Assembly: GCA_964561155.1 (NCBI GenBank)
Contig: CAZLOI010000001.1
Location: 366,759-430,758, forward strand
Direction of reading: 5' to 3'
From: an uncultured Candidatus Saccharibacteria bacterium
GTDB lineage: Bacteria; Patescibacteriota; Dojkabacteria; J137
DNA: 64,000 bases
The notes below the pieces were generated by a model. It saw only the letters and a program-made list of their open reading frames with translations, ran no database searches and was not told the DNA's origin. The position numbers were made by a program, and so were the translations under genes. Positions 38,194 through 50,061 of the stretch are shown here, one piece after another. Within the stretch, counting starts at the first letter, position 1; every line of letters starts with the position of its first letter.

Positions 38194-39582
38194 ATGCAAA
38201 GACGTACTATCCTCCTAGTTACCCTTTTCGTTGTCGTTAGTGTTTCAGCAACAATATTAACAGCGTTTGGTATTGCCGATTATTCTGCTCCTGTAGCTAT
38301 GGCGCAATCACAGGGTACATATATTGAGGCTAGTGATGATCTGGCCAATGAGTTTGCTCAGGTAGTTTGTAGCGATGTGAAAGCGAATATAAATATTCAA
38401 GGAACTGAGTTAACATTAAAGACTAAAGAGAATGTAGGAGGTGCTATTGATGAACTAATGTATAAAGGTGTGGATCTTATAAATAGTTTCGATCATGGAA
38501 GACAGTTGCAATATGCTCTTTCTGTGAATAACGCTGGAGAATGTAATAACCCGACTGAAGGTGGTTCTATAGTTAATGGTCCAGTTAGTTCACCTTCAAC
38601 ATCTAAGTTACAAGCAAGTTGTAAGCTAGCTCCTAATCAACTCTTTACTAGAACTAGGATGGCATATTGGCTTCCAGCAGGATCTAGTTCTGGAGGTAAT
38701 TTCTGCAACGGTAATTCTTCCAAAACTATTAATACAACAAATCTTTCCGACTACAAAATATCGAAGATTGTAACGATTGGCTATGAAGGTAACGAAAATA
38801 TAGTCAGAATGGTTAGTAGATTAAAGATTCCTGAGGAGTTTAATTCTGCAAATATAGAGATTCCAACAATATATTTAGACAAGCAATACAACAAGGTATA
38901 TAAGTATGATCTCCTAACTCAAGACTTGGTAAGAATCCCAAATAGTGAGACAGAATCTACATCAAGCTACCTAACCTTTATGAAATACATAGGTAAATCA
39001 CCAGCTGTATTAAGCGATGGTACTAACTATGTGGCTATATACTCTCCTCGCGCTTCAACCAACGGTATCTTCAAGTTTGATCTTTCAGATCCAAGTTCTA
39101 CTGCAGATGGTTCAAAGATTCAGGCTATATATAGTATGGGATCTAGAAGAGCTGACCAAGTTGAATATTTCGAGAGTTTTGTAATAGTCGGTGGATATAA
39201 TAAGGTTGTAAGTTCACTAAAGTTCCTTCTTGAAAACAAACCAATAGAATCTGAAAGCACTGGTAGTGTAGATATACTCACTTGTTCAAGAATAGCAGGA
39301 TGGGCATGTAATCCTGGGGATCCTTCAGAAGTAATTAAAATCGAAGTACATACAGTAGATAAAGTTAGTGGAGCGTTAACTCTAGTTAGAAGTGTGGATG
39401 CAAATCAACATAGCGAGCCTGGTGTGAATACAATTTGCAATGGAAGCAACAAGAGGTTTGATGTTTCTATGGACACTCTTCTACAGGGATTGGATAGAAA
39501 TTTCGTAGAGGTATATGCAGTTAACGCCAAGGGTCAAAGTATAATTTTACCGAATGGTTCAAAGAAACTGACTTGCGAATAG
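38194..39582 (+). CDS. secreted hypothetical protein (signal peptide)
   Basis: Signal peptide MQRRTILLVTLFVVVSVSATILTAFGIA with an AxA-like cleavage region (AMAQSQ). Ser/Thr/Asn-rich. Several Cys residues. No recognisable catalytic motifs. Confidence 0.55.
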   Translation: MQRRTILLVTLFVVVSVSATILTAFGIADYSAPVAMAQSQGTYIEASDDLANEFAQVVCSDVKANINIQGTELTLKTKENVGGAIDELMYKGVDLINSFDHGRQLQYALSVNNAGECNNPTEGGSIVNGPVSSPSTSKLQASCKLAPNQLFTRTRMAYWLPAGSSSGGNFCNGNSSKTINTTNLSDYKISKIVTIGYEGNENIVRMVSRLKIPEEFNSANIEIPTIYLDKQYNKVYKYDLLTQDLVRIPNSETESTSSYLTFMKYIGKSPAVLSDGTNYVAIYSPRASTNGIFKFDLSDPSSTADGSKIQAIYSMGSRRADQVEYFESFVIVGGYNKVVSSLKFLLENKPIESESTGSVDILTCSRIAGWACNPGDPSEVIKIEVHTVDKVSGALTLVRSVDANQHSEPGVNTICNGSNKRFDVSMDTLLQGLDRNFVEVYAVNAKGQSIILPNGSKKLTCE

Positions 39583-47307: not shown

Positions 47308-47652
47308 TTATGCTTTAACCTGCTCTACTAACTTTGTAAAGCTTTCTGGAGAGTTAACAGCCATTTCAGCTATTGTCTTTCTGTCTAAAGCAATCTCATT
47401 CTTCTTTAAAGCAGCGATAAACTTTGAGTAAGATAGATCTGTAGATGTTAATCCTGCAGAGATGATCTTAATCCATTCGTGTCTCATCTGAGCTCTCTTG
47501 TGTCTTCTATGAGCATATTCATATTGACCAGCATGCATAACAGCTTCCTTTGCTCTTCTGTATGACTTTGAATATGTCATTCTGAAGCCTTTAGCAAGCT
47601 TTAGTATTTTCTTATGTCTTTGCTTTTTTGTAATTCCTCTCTTTACTCTCAT
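47308..47652 (-). CDS. rplT: 50S ribosomal protein L20
   Basis: MRVKRGITKKQRHKKILKLAKGFRMTYSKSYRRAKEAV is the L20 signature. Last gene of the thrS-infC-rpmI-rplT cluster. Confidence 0.92.
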   Translation of the reverse strand: MRVKRGITKKQRHKKILKLAKGFRMTYSKSYRRAKEAVMHAGQYEYAHRRHKRAQMRHEWIKIISAGLTSTDLSYSKFIAALKKNEIALDRKTIAEMAVNSPESFTKLVEQVKA

Positions 47653-47653
47653 G

Positions 47654-47863
47654 TTAGATATTTAATAATTGTTTGATTCTTCTTACCTGACCTTTGGCAC
47701 TAATTACATAAGCGTGTGCATTCAATCTCTTCTGACTTCTACTCTTCTTACTCTTCAAGTGAGCATTACCTCTACCCTGTTGATGCGTTCTTTTAATCTT
47801 ACCAGTACCTGTAAGCTTAAATCTCTTTGCTGTTGCCTTATGTGTCTTTATTTTATTTCTCAT
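47654..47863 (-). CDS. rpmI: 50S ribosomal protein L35
   Basis: [25 protein letters not shown] matches L35 (MPKIKT.RGAAKRFKKTGKGG.KHR). 69 aa. Confidence 0.88.
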
Positions 47864-47864
47864 T

Positions 47865-48395
47865 TTAGTTTGATCTAATTATTAGACTTAAATTTCTTCC
47901 TTCTCTAGTAACATCTGTTGTTAACTTAGAAAAAGTTAAACTCTTTTCTTTAATTTTAGCCATTGTCTCGTACATTAATGCTGGGCTAGTCTTTCCTCTA
48001 GCTTTAAGAGTCAACTTTGCAGTTCCTCCTCCCTTAACAATAAAGTCCTTAACCTTCTCTAATCTAATTTCCATGTCTCTATCTTGAATGTTTGGATAAA
48101 ACCACCATTCCTTTGTTTCAACCTTTGTCTTAGCGTTTTTCTTTAATTTCTTAATCTTTTCGTACTTAGCTTTAGACAATTCTTCAATCTTTGCAACAGG
48201 ATTCTCTGGATTATCTGATACCAAGATCAGGTCCAATTCTCTCTCTCTTGCCATAGCCAAGGCTACTTCTCTCTTTATCTTCCCTAAATTATTACCTTCG
48301 TCATCGATCAGTATAAACTCCGGAAAGCTTATCCTATCATTGTAAATGAAATTAACATTGTACTTAGGGGTACTCTTTTTTCCTCTTCTTACAAT
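47865..48395 (-). CDS. infC: translation initiation factor IF-3, full frame with probable non-AUG (ATT/ATA) start
   Basis: The track ORF (47865-48260) begins at an internal TTG/Met. The same frame is open upstream to a stop at 48410-48408 and encodes ...[61 protein letters not shown]. This matches the IF3 N-domain (NEEIRAREVRLIDEDGEQLGV...ALQLAEEAGLDLVEV). No ATG, GTG or TTG exists in the extension. An ATT at 48395 (or ATA at 48407/48401) gives about 177 aa. Confidence 0.8.
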
Positions 48396-48451
48396 CTTTA
48401 TATTTATTTAGTTAACAACGTGTTTGATTTTACCAGAGAAAGAGCCTAATC

Positions 48452-49960
48452 TCAAGCCCCTATTTCGTTATCCAAATTCTCAAGGTATGAGATAAGCTCC
48501 TCGTTACTGACCAAACCAATATCCTCTTCAATCGTTCTTAAAGAAACAGAATTGTTCTGAACTTCCTTGCCTCCTAAAAGCATCGTATATCTCACATTGT
48601 GCTTGTATGACTGATGAATTCTGTGCTTCAAACTCCTTGTATTCTTCAAAACCTTTGTTACAAAACCTTTCTTTGATAGCTCTTCAGCTAGATCGAAGGC
48701 ATATGATTCAAACTTCCTTGCTATTGGAATCAAGAATATATCGTAATATGTTCTTGTAAATACCGGGTTGCTCTCCAAGTGAAACGCTATGTAGTTAATC
48801 AAAGGTAGAGTTAGCAGCATTAGAGATTTATCTCCATTTAGGGATATTCGAATCTCTGCTAGCTTCCATTGTCTGTTTAATTCATCGGCTACATTTATTC
48901 GAAGGATGATGTCTTCTGAATCAGTGATAACTCTGTCATGAGATATGTATCTATTCTGAAGAACTCCAGAGATTGCAGCAAAAAGACTATTGTCTGAATC
49001 TTTGTATTCAATTTCTGCATAAACGTTATTATTTTCAAAGTTTATCTCACTTAGGAACTCCTCAATTAAACTTGTATGTAGGAAAATCTCGGATTCCTTG
49101 CAATATACTGCAGCGAAATATGTGATTTGGTCAGATACAGAGTCTTTAAGTGGCTGAGATGCAAGCACTGTTTTTCCAGAAACCTTTAAAGCTGTTTTTT
49201 CCTTTGGTCTTTGAACCTGAAAGTCGATTCCCTTAAGCGTATTCAAGAACTCTTCTGTATTAGCACTCTTCTCAAAGAAATCTGTATGTAGGTTTGATGT
49301 TATTCCAAGTTTCTTGTTTAGCTCTAATGTTACTTTCTCTAAATACTTTGTACCCAAGATATTAAGTCTTCCATCTTTGTTTGCTAGTCCAACATTCTTT
49401 AAGATACTTAAGAAGCTTCGTTTTCTCTTCTCTTCTTCCATACTTTTGTATGATGCTAGCTCTTCTTGATTGTAGAAAGTCTTGCCCGAGATTCTAATCA
49501 TTGCTGGTCTATTCTCATCTTCATTCCAGTTAGTCTGTGAAACCTTTGTCAGTATTATCGGTCCAAGATCTCCTGTTGAACTTAAATGTGGTCCTCTACA
49601 TACATCTATGAAATCTTCTCCTGTTTTAAAGAAGCTGATTTCATCTTCAGGAACGATATTAATCAATTCCGACTTATATATCTGTCCCTTTTGAAGCATG
49701 TAGTTAAGGGCTGCATTCTTCGCCATGGTAACTTGTTTGAATGGAAGGTTTTCAAGAATAATCTTCTTAATTTCTTGTTCGATTTCTTCAAGATCGATCT
49801 TCTCTGGTGTTAGTTTCTTGTCACCAAGATCAAAATCGTAGTAGAAACCTTCTCTGTTTACAGGTCCGATTCCAATTTTAACTTTTGGATATATTCTCTG
49901 TACTGCTTGGGCAAGTACATGAGCTGCTGAGTGCTTAGCTTCATCTGTAATTGGGGTCAT
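48452..49960 (-). CDS. thrS: threonyl-tRNA synthetase-like protein (editing plus anticodon-binding domains retained; catalytic core apparently degenerate)
   Basis: N2 editing domain with HSAAH...GIGPVNREGFYYDFD and CRGPH zinc/editing motifs. C-terminus matches the ThrRS anticodon-binding domain (FDLAEELSKKGFVTKV...RYTMLLGGKEVQNNSVSLRT). The central region is collinear with the ThrRS class II core but lacks the PMNCPGH, FRNE, QDDAH and HRA motifs. 502 aa with no TGS domain. Conserved thrS-infC-rpmI-rplT gene order. Confidence 0.7.
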   Translation of the reverse strand: MTPITDEAKHSAAHVLAQAVQRIYPKVKIGIGPVNREGFYYDFDLGDKKLTPEKIDLEEIEQEIKKIILENLPFKQVTMAKNAALNYMLQKGQIYKSELINIVPEDEISFFKTGEDFIDVCRGPHLSSTGDLGPIILTKVSQTNWNEDENRPAMIRISGKTFYNQEELASYKSMEEEKRKRSFLSILKNVGLANKDGRLNILGTKYLEKVTLELNKKLGITSNLHTDFFEKSANTEEFLNTLKGIDFQVQRPKEKTALKVSGKTVLASQPLKDSVSDQITYFAAVYCKESEIFLHTSLIEEFLSEINFENNNVYAEIEYKDSDNSLFAAISGVLQNRYISHDRVITDSEDIILRINVADELNRQWKLAEIRISLNGDKSLMLLTLPLINYIAFHLESNPVFTRTYYDIFLIPIARKFESYAFDLAEELSKKGFVTKVLKNTRSLKHRIHQSYKHNVRYTMLLGGKEVQNNSVSLRTIEEDIGLVSNEELISYLENLDNEIGA

Positions 49961-49988: not shown

Positions 49989-50061
49989 TGGGTAACACAG
50001 GGCTCGAACCTGTAACCTTTTCTACGTCAAAGAAATGCTCTACCAGTTGAGCTAGCTACCC
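49989..50061 (-). tRNA. tRNA-Val (anticodon GAC)
   Basis: Reverse complement folds as a cloverleaf. Acceptor GGGTAGC/GTTACCC(+A). D-stem GCTC/GAGC. Anticodon stem TTTCT/AGAAA with loop TTGACGT. T-arm ACAGGTTCGAGCCCTGT. 73 nt. Confidence 0.85.

What the first reader, a model, noticed from the sequence alone, without database searches (positions are those of the whole stretch)
48452..49960. thrS in the conserved thrS-infC-rpmI-rplT operon appears to lack the class II catalytic motifs while keeping editing and anticodon-binding domains
The protein aligns collinearly with bacterial ThrRS. The N2 editing domain is intact, with both zinc/editing motifs (HSAAH, CRGPH). The C-terminal anticodon-binding domain is recognisable. 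The roughly 300-aa catalytic core is about 70 aa shorter than canonical. I could not find PMNC-PGH (Zn Cys), FRNE / QDDAH (motif 2, Zn His) or HRA-LGS-ERF (motif 3, Zn His); the collinear positions read ...LPLINYIAFHLES.... The TGS N1 domain is also absent. Either this is an extremely diverged but active ThrRS, or it is a non-aminoacylating paralog (editing or regulatory role) occupying the canonical operon position. The latter would imply a second thrS elsewhere, or an unusual route to Thr-tRNA.
Basis: partly seen in the sequence, partly recalled or inferred. Interest (0 to 1): 0.65.

Follow-up and report, generated by a model that had tools for sequence, protein, structure and literature searches.

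The report
Catalytically dead ThrRS that keeps proofreading
In one branch of the tiny-genome Dojkabacteria, the threonyl-tRNA synthetase gene has lost its whole tRNA-charging active site but kept its proofreading and tRNA-recognition domains, so it most likely works only as a proofreader and another, still unlocated enzyme must charge tRNA-Thr.

Summary
ORF 48452-49960 (-) encodes a 502-aa ThrRS-like protein. It has an intact N2 editing domain and an anticodon-binding domain. Its middle domain is 205 aa, against 281-285 aa in canonical relatives.

The middle domain still has the class II fold and is collinear with the ThrRS core (hhalign 97.9%). It has lost motifs 1-3, all three Zn ligands and the ATP-binding arginines. 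A ThrRS-core HMM scores it -0.1 bits.

It is neither an artefact nor a lone oddity:
- At least 32 protein clusters of 495-555 aa share the design.
- All editing-site residues are invariant across them.
- The degenerate core is under purifying selection.
- All family loci examined sit in the same mutL-DUF192-clpP-tRNAVal-thrS*-infC-rpmI-rplT neighbourhood.

A tree on N2+ABD columns nests the family inside Dojkabacteria ThrRS, with half-degenerate intermediates in the same operon slot. It is therefore the ancestral thrS decayed in place, not a paralog.

The best reading is a tRNA-Thr-specific Ser-tRNA-Thr deacylase acting in trans. That would be a bacterial analogue of crenarchaeal ThrRS-ed, built from a different editing fold.

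The required second ThrRS was not found in the 64-kb window or in ±10 kb of seven related genomes. Whole genomes could not be scanned. No description of this protein was found in the literature.

The parts
48452..49960 (-). thrS* gene: a 502-aa ThrRS-derived protein without an aminoacylation site
   Evidence: ORF; domain hits. Two AF2 models: pLDDT 90.9 and 88.3 with a family-only MSA. Foldseek best hit is E. coli ThrRS 1qf6_A, TM 0.69-0.75.
49469..49948 (-). N2 editing domain (residues 5-164), ThrRS type
   Evidence: Aligns to S. aureus ThrRS 73-240 and E. coli 71-240. Mean pairwise identity within the family is 0.60, the same as among canonical ThrRS (0.59). dN/dS about 0.03.
49919..49933 (-). 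HxxxH editing motif (H10-S-A-A-H14, equivalent to E. coli H73/H77)
   Evidence: Invariant in 64 of 64 aligned sequences.
49586..49600 (-). CxGxH editing motif (C121-R-G-P-H125, equivalent to E. coli C182/H186); D119 (D180) lies just before it
   Evidence: Invariant in 64 of 64 aligned sequences.
49376..49468 (-). Linker helix between N2 and the core (residues 165-195)
   Evidence: Helices 165-180 and 183-189 in both AF2 models. Aligned to ThrRS up to about residue 192.
48761..49375 (-). Degenerate class II core (residues 196-400): fold kept, motifs 1-3 and Zn site lost, 76-80 aa shorter than canonical
   Evidence: hhalign 97.9% to the canonical core, with no motif recovered. Canonical-core HMM scores -0.1 bits. 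Residue table. pN 0.14 against pS 0.72 versus the closest relative. phmmer against 1.84e9 representative proteins finds only 9 clusters; eight are ~500-525-aa family proteins and one is a 258-aa fragment.
48932..48970 (-). Family-specific conserved motif S331-x2-L-Q-x3-I-S340-H341-[DN]-[KR] inside the degenerate core
   Evidence: S331 in 31/32, Q335 in 28/32, S340 in 32/32 and H341 in 26/32 family members. Not conserved in canonical or intermediate proteins. A DNA pattern built on this motif hits every family locus once and none of 97 other loci.
48455..48760 (-). Anticodon-binding domain (residues 401-502)
   Evidence: Pfam HGTP_anticodon, E 4.5e-11. E466 and R475 (equivalent to E. coli E600 and R609) are invariant in the family. 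dN/dS about 0.04.
49989..50061 (-). tRNA-Val(GAC), ending 28 nt upstream of the thrS* start codon
   Evidence: ARAGORN and Rfam. The same tRNA sits directly upstream in all family loci and in the P0035 locus.
47865..48407 (-). infC (IF3), non-AUG start (ATA at 48407 or 48401, or ATT at 48395), 44 nt after the thrS* stop
   Evidence: Translation and sequence. IF3_N/IF3_C genes occupy the same position in related loci.
47654..47863 (-). rpmI (ribosomal protein L35)
   Evidence: ORF. Orthologous position carries Pfam Ribosomal_L35p in related loci.
47308..47652 (-). rplT (ribosomal protein L20)
   Evidence: ORF. Orthologous position carries Pfam Ribosomal_L20 in related loci.
50064..50648 (-). 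clpP, a conserved upstream neighbour
   Evidence: ORF. CLP_protease at the same position in all related loci.

Best explanation
The gene is the ancestral operon thrS of a Dojkabacteria (CPR/Patescibacteria) sublineage that has become a pseudo-synthetase.

Shown:
- The aminoacylation site has been erased: Zn site, motifs 1-3 and ATP/Thr contacts. About 80 residues are deleted.
- The class II scaffold, the N2 editing domain with every known catalytic residue, and the tRNA-Thr anticodon-binding domain are preserved under purifying selection.

Inferred mechanism:
- The protein still docks tRNA-Thr through the ABD, and probably through the remodelled core.
- It swings the CCA end into the N2 site and hydrolyses Ser-tRNA-Thr. 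It thus acts as a tRNA-Thr-specific trans-editing deacylase.
- It may work on its own, or as the proofreading subunit of a dimer with a separate aminoacylating ThrRS.

Inferred consequences:
- A second, catalytically active ThrRS must exist elsewhere in the genome. It is most economically one with weak or no editing, which would explain why the editing function of the old gene was retained.
- That partner was not located.
For: Loss of catalysis:
- No tRNA-synt_2b Pfam hit.
- TIGR00418 scores 159 bits against a 383.65 cut-off.
- A canonical-core HMM scores -0.1 bits.
- 0 of 32 family members keep the Zn ligands or the motif 2 Arg.

Fold and homology are retained:
- hhalign 97.9%, collinear.
- AF2 pLDDT 88-91. 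The model from the family-only MSA gives TM 0.75 to the E. coli ThrRS-tRNA complex.

Selection:
- 32 clusters at 29-85% identity keep the 495-555 aa design.
- N2 conservation equals that of canonical ThrRS (0.60 against 0.59). Core conservation drops from 0.53 to 0.28.
- dN/dS is about 0.03 for N2, 0.07 for the core and 0.04 for the ABD.
- Editing residues H73, H77, Y104, K156, D180, C182 and H186 and ABD residues E600 and R609 (E. coli numbering) are invariant.

In-situ decay:
- The mutL-DUF192-clpP-tRNAVal-thrS*-infC-rpmI-rplT synteny is the same in all family loci examined and in the P0035 and P0037 loci.
- In an NJ tree on N2+ABD columns the family is monophyletic (87%). Family plus intermediates get 84%. 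The whole group nests with Dojkabacteria ThrRS (89%).
- TIGR00418 scores form a ladder: 722 and 686 (canonical), 552, 535, 389, 238 (intermediates), 157-278 (family).

Taxonomy:
- GyrB hits are all named Candidatus Dojkabacteria.
- One family member, MBE0573827.1, is from a Dojkabacteria MAG.

Precedent:
- Crenarchaeal ThrRS-cat/ThrRS-ed split (PMC3592468, PMC7373986).
- Trans-editing by T1 subunits in Anabaena T1/T2 heterodimers (PMC4787780).

Need for Thr-tRNA:
- Thr makes up 5.6% of residues in eight large window genes.
Against: - No biochemical data exist.
- The partner ThrRS was not found. It is absent from the 64-kb window. It is also absent from about ±10 kb around the gene in five other family-bearing genomes and the two intermediate (P0035, P0037) genomes. 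A search for Dojkabacteria-type ThrRS lacking N2 found none.
- Motif 1, part of the canonical dimer interface, is also degenerate, so dimerisation is uncertain.
- The core carries a new conserved motif (S331, Q335, S340, H341) that the editing model does not explain.
- The editing-domain position equivalent to E. coli Y173 has changed to Phe in 26 of 32 members. The effect on activity is unknown.
Confidence: 0.6

Rival explanations
1. It is an obligate non-catalytic subunit. The protein heterodimerises with a separately encoded, active ThrRS through the retained class II scaffold. It supplies tRNA binding and editing within the heterodimer rather than acting as a free-standing factor.
For: - The core scaffold is conserved in length and fold and is under purifying selection, although catalytically dead.
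- Family-specific conserved surface residues in the core could form a new interface.
- Anabaena T1/T2 heterodimers edit in trans (PMC4787780).
Against: - Motif 1, central to the class II dimer interface, is degenerate in the family.
- No partner has been identified.
- No multimer model could be computed.
Confidence: 0.2
2. It has a non-editing role. The protein could be a tRNA-Thr-binding regulator or chaperone, for example for feedback control of the infC-rpmI-rplT operon or sequestration of uncharged tRNA-Thr. Alternatively it could have a new activity centred on the remodelled core.
For: - New family-specific invariant residues in the core: S340 in 32/32 and H341 in 26/32.
- The operon position is retained.
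- E. coli ThrRS is known to regulate its own mRNA (established knowledge).
Against: - Every catalytic residue of the editing site is invariant across deep divergence. N2 is as conserved as in working ThrRS. That is hard to explain without hydrolytic editing.
- Rfam finds no operator-like or T-box leader.
- Only 28 nt separate tRNA-Val from the start codon.
Confidence: 0.15
3. It is still the cell's only, extremely diverged but active, ThrRS with a rebuilt active site.
For: - No second thrS was seen in any sequence that could be inspected.
- The gene is conserved and sits in the canonical operon.
Against: - The motif 2 and motif 3 arginines, all Zn ligands, and the Thr- and A76-contacting residues are absent in all 32 members. 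The segments that carry them are deleted.
- Core conservation is relaxed from 0.53 to 0.28, the opposite of what an essential active site would show.
- The loss is stepwise through intermediates. That implies the function was already dispensable.
Confidence: 0.04
4. It is a decaying pseudogene or an assembly or frameshift artefact.
For: None beyond the missing motifs.
Against: - The reading frame is intact in 32 or more clusters from NCBI, JGI, ENA and Logan assemblies.
- dN/dS is far below 1 in every domain.
- AF2 models are confident.
Confidence: 0.01

Closest known systems
Crenarchaeal ThrRS-ed (Ser-tRNA(Thr) hydrolase; NCBIfam NF011500/PRK14938), partner of ThrRS-cat
   Same: - Both are ThrRS-derived proteins that cannot aminoacylate.
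- Both keep an editing domain plus the anticodon-binding domain.
- ThrRS-ed clears Ser-tRNA-Thr made by a separate catalytic ThrRS (PMC3592468, PMC7373986).
   Different: - The archaeal editing domain is a DTD-like fold. Here it is the bacterial N2 (AlaX-like, HxxxH/CxGxH) fold.
- The NF011500 model does not hit the window protein. It matches only the ABD of relatives, at 45-75 bits against a cut-off of 362.
- This is therefore an independent, convergent origin in Bacteria.
- A partner equivalent to ThrRS-cat has not been found here.
Canonical bacterial ThrRS (TIGR00418; E. coli 1QF6, S. aureus 1NYQ)
   Same: - Same operon (thrS-infC-rpmI-rplT).
- Same N2, core fold and ABD architecture, with collinear homology.
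   Different: - Lacks class II motifs 1-3, the catalytic Zn site and about 80 core residues.
- Fails the equivalog cut-off: 159 against 383.65 bits.
Anabaena duplicated ThrRS T1/T2 (Rubio et al. 2015, PMC4787780)
   Same: Aminoacylation and proofreading are divided between two ThrRS-type polypeptides, with editing supplied in trans.
   Different: - In Anabaena both proteins are complete synthetases and the split is conditional on low zinc.
- Here the loss of catalysis is permanent and structural.
AlaX / free-standing AlaRS-ThrRS second additional domain (tRNA_SAD) proteins
   Same: Homologous editing fold and HxxxH/CxGxH motif, with trans-editing of Ser-mischarged tRNA.
   Different: - AlaX proteins are single-domain, or have small additions, and have no ThrRS core or ABD.
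- The window protein scores 29 bits on AlaXM against 159 on the thrS N-terminus.
- It has an aromatic residue (Phe) at the E. coli Y173 position, where the AlaRS type has an aliphatic residue (PMC12003907).

Membership tests
Threonine--tRNA ligase (TIGR00418 equivalog; class IIa aaRS) | Whole-protein score above the curated equivalog cut-off | tested here: not met
   159 bits against a 383.65 cut-off. Canonical Dojkabacteria controls score 722 and 686.
Threonine--tRNA ligase (TIGR00418 equivalog; class IIa aaRS) | Class II motifs 1, 2 and 3, including the motif 2 and motif 3 arginines that bind ATP | tested here: not met
   No tRNA-synt_2b hit. Core HMM scores -0.1 bits. Motif 2 Arg is present in 0 of 32 members and motif 3 Arg in 3 of 32; the window protein has S and N at these positions.
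Threonine--tRNA ligase (TIGR00418 equivalog; class IIa aaRS) | Catalytic Zn site (E. coli C334, H385, H511; numbering from memory, mapped by motif) | tested here: not met
   The Cys and the first His lie in deleted segments, and the third His is replaced by Leu. 0 of 32 members keep any ligand.
Threonine--tRNA ligase (TIGR00418 equivalog; class IIa aaRS) | N2 editing domain with HxxxH and CxGxH | tested here: met
   H10, H14, D119, C121, G123 and H125 are invariant.
Threonine--tRNA ligase (TIGR00418 equivalog; class IIa aaRS) | HGTP-type anticodon-binding domain | tested here: met
   PF03129, E 4.5e-11. E466 and R475 are invariant in the family.
Threonine--tRNA ligase (TIGR00418 equivalog; class IIa aaRS) | Thr-AMP formation and tRNA-Thr charging activity | not testable with these tools
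   Needs an enzyme assay.
Crenarchaeal ThrRS-ed / Ser-tRNA(Thr) hydrolase (NF011500) | Match to the family model above its cut-off (362 bits) | tested here: not met
   Not among the hits at E<=10 for the window protein. Relatives score 45-75 bits, on the ABD only.
Crenarchaeal ThrRS-ed / Ser-tRNA(Thr) hydrolase (NF011500) | DTD-like N-terminal editing domain | tested here: not met
   The N-terminal domain is the bacterial N2/tRNA_SAD fold.
Crenarchaeal ThrRS-ed / Ser-tRNA(Thr) hydrolase (NF011500) | Co-occurrence with an editing-less catalytic ThrRS (ThrRS-cat) | tested here: inconclusive
   No second ThrRS core in the window or in ±10 kb of related loci. Whole genomes could not be searched.
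Crenarchaeal ThrRS-ed / Ser-tRNA(Thr) hydrolase (NF011500) | Ser-tRNA-Thr deacylase activity | not testable with these tools
   Needs a deacylation assay. Conservation of the active-site residues is the only proxy.
AlaX-type free-standing editing proteins | Stand-alone tRNA_SAD-type domain without a synthetase core or ABD; aliphatic residue at the position of ThrRS Y173 | tested here: not met
   The protein has a ThrRS core remnant and an ABD. The Y173 position is Phe or Tyr. AlaXM scores 29 bits against a cut-off of 300.

The most novel reading that the evidence does not exclude
This Dojkabacteria sublineage has no conventional ThrRS at all. On this reading, Thr-tRNA-Thr is produced by a non-homologous or unrecognisably diverged enzyme, or is obtained from the host. 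The dead ThrRS is kept as the only tRNA-Thr-specific quality-control or handling factor, possibly with a new function at the conserved S-x8-SH site in the remodelled core.
Probability: 0.06. Interest if true: 0.95.

Novelty: new variant of a known kind. Interest (0 to 1): 0.68.

Why it matters
Separation of tRNA charging from proofreading into two ThrRS-derived proteins is so far a crenarchaeal curiosity. Here the same outcome appears to have evolved independently in Bacteria. It starts from the bacterial N2 editing fold, and the intermediate stages of decay are still alive in sister lineages.

What this offers:
- A natural time series of how an essential enzyme becomes a pseudo-enzyme while one of its domains stays essential.
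- A prediction that these Dojkabacteria carry a displaced, probably horizontally acquired and possibly editing-deficient, ThrRS. Archaeal-type TyrRS is already documented in this phylum (PMC5370408).

Practical consequences:
- Genome annotation pipelines and completeness or aaRS-complement analyses can be misled. Family members are labelled 'threonyl-tRNA synthetase' or 'hypothetical protein'.
- The half-dead intermediates still pass the TIGR00418 cut-off.

Tried and rejected
Searches for a second ThrRS, none of which found one:
1. Within the window:
   - tblastn with three canonical ThrRS found nothing.
   - Pfam on 30 ORFs found no aaRS.
   - A canonical-core HMM against all six-frame ORFs found nothing.
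2. In ±6-10 kb around the gene in related contigs there was none.
3. I searched the P0034 catalytic+ABD region to find a Dojkabacteria-type ThrRS lacking N2, or one sharing a contig-length fingerprint with family contigs.
   - No fingerprint matched.
   - The only N2-less hit (P0145) is truncated by a contig end.
4. I tested whether the other Dojkabacteria-labelled canonical ThrRS (P0088, P0048, P0137) might be partners. They sit in their own thrS-infC operons in other genomes.
5. Comparing accession adjacency through cluster look-ups gave no co-occurrence.

- A hand-made DNA pattern worked but gave only 6 JGI contigs. Four carry the family gene (L113-L116) and none holds a second core.
- Encoding-contig look-ups were exhausted before the roughly 1.15-Mb Dojkabacteria contigs seen via GyrB (P0260, P0302) could be inspected.
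- No tRNA-Thr gene lay in any fetched locus, so tRNA identity elements could not be used to guess the partner's type.

Other checks:
- Rfam found no T-box, ThrRS operator or L20 leader.
- Literature searches found no description of a bacterial catalytically dead ThrRS.
Full report
**What is at the coordinates**

ORF 48452..49960 on the minus strand encodes 502 aa (ATG start, TGA stop).
- It lies 28 nt downstream of a tRNA-Val(GAC) gene at 49989-50061.
- It lies 44 nt upstream of infC, which starts at a non-AUG codon (ATA or ATT at 48395-48407). rpmI and rplT follow.
- clpP, a DUF192 gene and mutL lie upstream.

GC content is about 36% throughout the window. The window otherwise carries typical CPR housekeeping genes: gyrA/B, dnaB, ruvB, recG, prfA-like RF, a type IV pilus cluster and PBP1A. 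It carries no other aaRS.

All named GyrB relatives (62-78% identity) are from 'Candidatus Dojkabacteria'.

Domain and family searches:
- Pfam finds only tRNA_SAD (112-157) and HGTP_anticodon (408-495).
- NCBIfam thrS (TIGR00418) gives 159 bits against a cut-off of 383.65.
- phmmer against PDB aligns residues 8-192 with the N2 domain of S. aureus and E. coli ThrRS and 408-494 with their ABD. Nothing aligns between.

- An HMM built from 90 canonical ThrRS catalytic cores, run without filters on all six-frame ORFs of the window, gives this ORF -0.1 bits (E 4.7). It finds no other ORF.
- A profile-profile comparison of the family's middle region with the canonical core is significant and collinear from end to end (hhalign 97.9%, E 5e-13, 220 columns, 13% identity). 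No motif reappears at a shifted position.

Fate of the catalytic elements:

| Element | State in the family |
|---|---|
| KPMNCP loop (Zn Cys) | deleted |
| Motif 2 (fRyE...RVRgFtQDDAH, Zn His) | replaced, and the segment carrying D383/H385 deleted |
| FYGPK segment | largely deleted (Tyr gone, Lys replaced) |
| Motif 3 (HRA..GS.ERF, Zn His) | replaced by LMLLTL--PLINYIAF |
| Motif 1 (GY..V.TP) | gone |

Across 32 family members none retains a Zn ligand or the motif 2 arginine.

The core is 205 aa, against 281-285 aa in the nearest canonical enzymes. The missing TGS domain is not unusual, because all close canonical relatives lack it too.

**It is a real, conserved protein family**

The protein search returned at least 32 clusters of 495-555 aa with the same two Pfam domains and no PF00587. 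They are 29-85% identical to the window protein over its full length.

Conservation by region:

| Region | Mean pairwise identity, family | Mean pairwise identity, canonical ThrRS |
|---|---|---|
| N2 | 0.60 | 0.59 |
| Core | 0.28 | 0.53 |
| ABD | 0.40 | 0.49 |

Against the closest relative (85% identity; DNA from L091), the degenerate core has pN 0.14 against pS 0.72. dS is saturated. The dN/dS estimates are about 0.03 for N2, 0.07 for the core and 0.04 for the ABD.

The core alone, searched by phmmer against 1.84 billion representative proteins, finds only nine clusters. Eight are ~500-525-aa family proteins, one is a 258-aa fragment, and none is a canonical ThrRS.

AlphaFold2 results:
- The model built with canonical sequences in the MSA has pLDDT 90.9.
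- The model built with the family alone has pLDDT 88.3.
- The two share the same secondary structure.
- Foldseek places both on E. coli ThrRS 1qf6_A (TM 0.69 and 0.75) and on truncated catalytic+ABD constructs.

So the class II scaffold and the overall ThrRS architecture are kept.

**What is conserved**

Using the alignment to 1qf6, the following correspond to E. coli H73, H77, Y104, K156, D180, C182, G184 and H186: H10, H14, Y41, K96, D119, C121, G123 and H125. These are the editing-site residues (H73/H77: PMC3592468; C182: PMC4041444; the others from memory of the E. coli structures).
- All are invariant in the family, the intermediates and the canonical enzymes.
- In the ABD, E466 and R475 (equivalent to E600 and R609) are invariant in the family.

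The core has gained its own conserved motif: S331 (31/32), Q335 (28/32), S340 (32/32) and H341 (26/32). It is absent from canonical and intermediate proteins. This suggests a new constraint, such as an interface or a binding patch. I cannot explain it.

**How it arose**

Synteny:
- All family loci examined, down to 35% identity, show the same mutL-DUF192-clpP-tRNAVal-thrS*-infC-rpmI-rplT order, with PBP1A on the opposite strand.
- The same slot holds P0037 and P0035 in sister lineages. The loci of P0040 and P0036 were not examined.

| Protein | Length | State of the core |
|---|---|---|
| P0037 | 582 aa | only the Zn Cys and D383 lost |
| P0035 | 572 aa | two Zn ligands and the motif 2 Arg lost |
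| P0040 | 580 aa | more degenerate still |
| P0036 | 556 aa | more degenerate still |

- Canonical Dojkabacteria ThrRS (P0034, P0137, P0088, P0048) also precede infC.

Phylogeny, from an NJ tree on 271 N2+ABD columns:
- The family is monophyletic (87/100).
- Family plus intermediates form a clade (84/100).
- That clade groups with Dojkabacteria-named ThrRS (89/100).

TIGR00418 scores fall stepwise along this ladder: 722/686 for canonical enzymes, then 552, 535, 389 and 238 for the intermediates, and 157-278 for the family.

This is in-situ decay of the ancestral thrS, not a paralog inserted in the operon. The Zn site went first. Aminoacylation by this gene was therefore already dispensable at the base of the clade.

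**Most likely function**

A protein that keeps a ThrRS scaffold, a tRNA-Thr anticodon-binding domain and a perfectly conserved Ser-tRNA-Thr editing site, but has no aminoacylation site, is most simply a tRNA-Thr-specific trans-editing deacylase.

The precedent is crenarchaeal ThrRS-ed, which works with ThrRS-cat (PMC3592468, PMC7373986). Trans-editing within ThrRS heterodimers is documented in Anabaena (PMC4787780).

The resemblance to ThrRS-ed is functional, not familial:
- The archaeal protein uses a DTD-like editing fold.
- Its NCBIfam model (NF011500) does not match the window protein.

Shown: loss of catalytic determinants, retention and selection of N2 and the ABD, fold retention, and the evolutionary path. 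Inferred: deacylase activity, tRNA-Thr specificity, and the existence and nature of a partner.

**The open hole**

These organisms use Thr codons normally: 5.6% of residues in eight large window genes. Something must therefore make Thr-tRNA-Thr.

I could not find a second ThrRS in the window, or within about ±10 kb of the gene in seven related genomes. I also could not find one among Dojkabacteria-type ThrRS by contig fingerprint or accession adjacency.

Archaeal-type TyrRS is documented in Dojkabacteria (PMC5370408). A horizontally acquired ThrRS is therefore plausible, but it is untested.

**Novelty**

Six literature searches found no description of a bacterial ThrRS-derived pseudo-synthetase of this kind.

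In public databases members are labelled 'threonyl-tRNA synthetase' (CAG1022938.1) or 'hypothetical protein' (MBE0573827.1).

I rate it a new variant of a known kind: a trans-editing, catalytically dead aaRS derivative. It is convergent with ThrRS-ed and comes with an unusually complete series of evolutionary intermediates.

Noticed in passing
L006:3446-3520 (- strand; Logan SRR33479973 contig, a family-bearing Dojkabacteria relative): A well-folded tRNA (cloverleaf MFE -31.3 kcal/mol, z -4.4) has the anticodon loop UUUUAGA. Its anticodon is therefore UUA, which would read the UAA stop codon. It sits between tRNA-Phe and tRNA-Ile. No counterpart was found in the window.
   Followed up: partly
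window 49628-49630 (residue F111): This editing-domain position corresponds to E. coli Y173. PMC12003907 reports that Tyr as invariant in ThrRS editing domains and responsible for keeping them Zn-free. It is Phe in 26/32 family members and 3/4 intermediates, but Tyr in 8/8 canonical relatives.
   Followed up: partly
L001:11509-12294 (GCA_963169855.1, CAUJCN010000001.1): A 261-aa ORF with no Pfam match is inserted between thrS* and infC, and its start overlaps the thrS* stop. It occurs only in this lineage and is absent from the window and the other family loci.
   Followed up: partly
window 48395-48407: infC has no in-frame AUG/GUG/UUG start that would include the IF3 N-terminal domain. It must start at ATA or ATT, the unusual start-codon class known for infC autoregulation.
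   Followed up: partly
proteins P0037, P0035, P0040 (loci L100, L089): These half-degenerate ThrRS have lost Zn ligands, and P0035 and P0040 have also lost the motif 2 Arg. They still score 552, 535 and 389 bits on TIGR00418 (cut-off 383.65). Automatic annotation would therefore call them functional threonine--tRNA ligase.
   Followed up: yes
window 48930-48970 and all family loci: The degenerate DNA pattern TCN7YTNCARARN7ATHTCNCAYRAYARRRT hits each family locus exactly once. It hits none of 97 other fetched loci and only 6 JGI metagenome contigs. It is a usable marker for the family.
   Followed up: yes
L103/L104:1-894 (Dojkabacteria GCA_020632375.1): A 653-aa TyrRS carries an N-terminal PheRS-beta B3_4-type domain. 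It resembles the B2-TyrRS fusion reported for WS6 bacteria in PMC5370408.
   Followed up: no
L100:2206-4113 (GCA_964444125.1): The AlaRS is only 635 aa (tRNA-synt_2c + tRNA_SAD), well short of the usual ~870 aa.
   Followed up: no
window 54481-60057 (+): An 1858-aa ORF has LamG-like, DUF2341 and carboxypeptidase-regulatory-like domains. It is probably a giant surface protein.
   Followed up: no
window 38194-39582 (+); also L005:18923-20311: A 462-aa ORF with no Pfam match even at E<=1. A no-Pfam ORF of the same length lies near thrS* in a distant relative (homology not tested). Its function is unknown.
   Followed up: no
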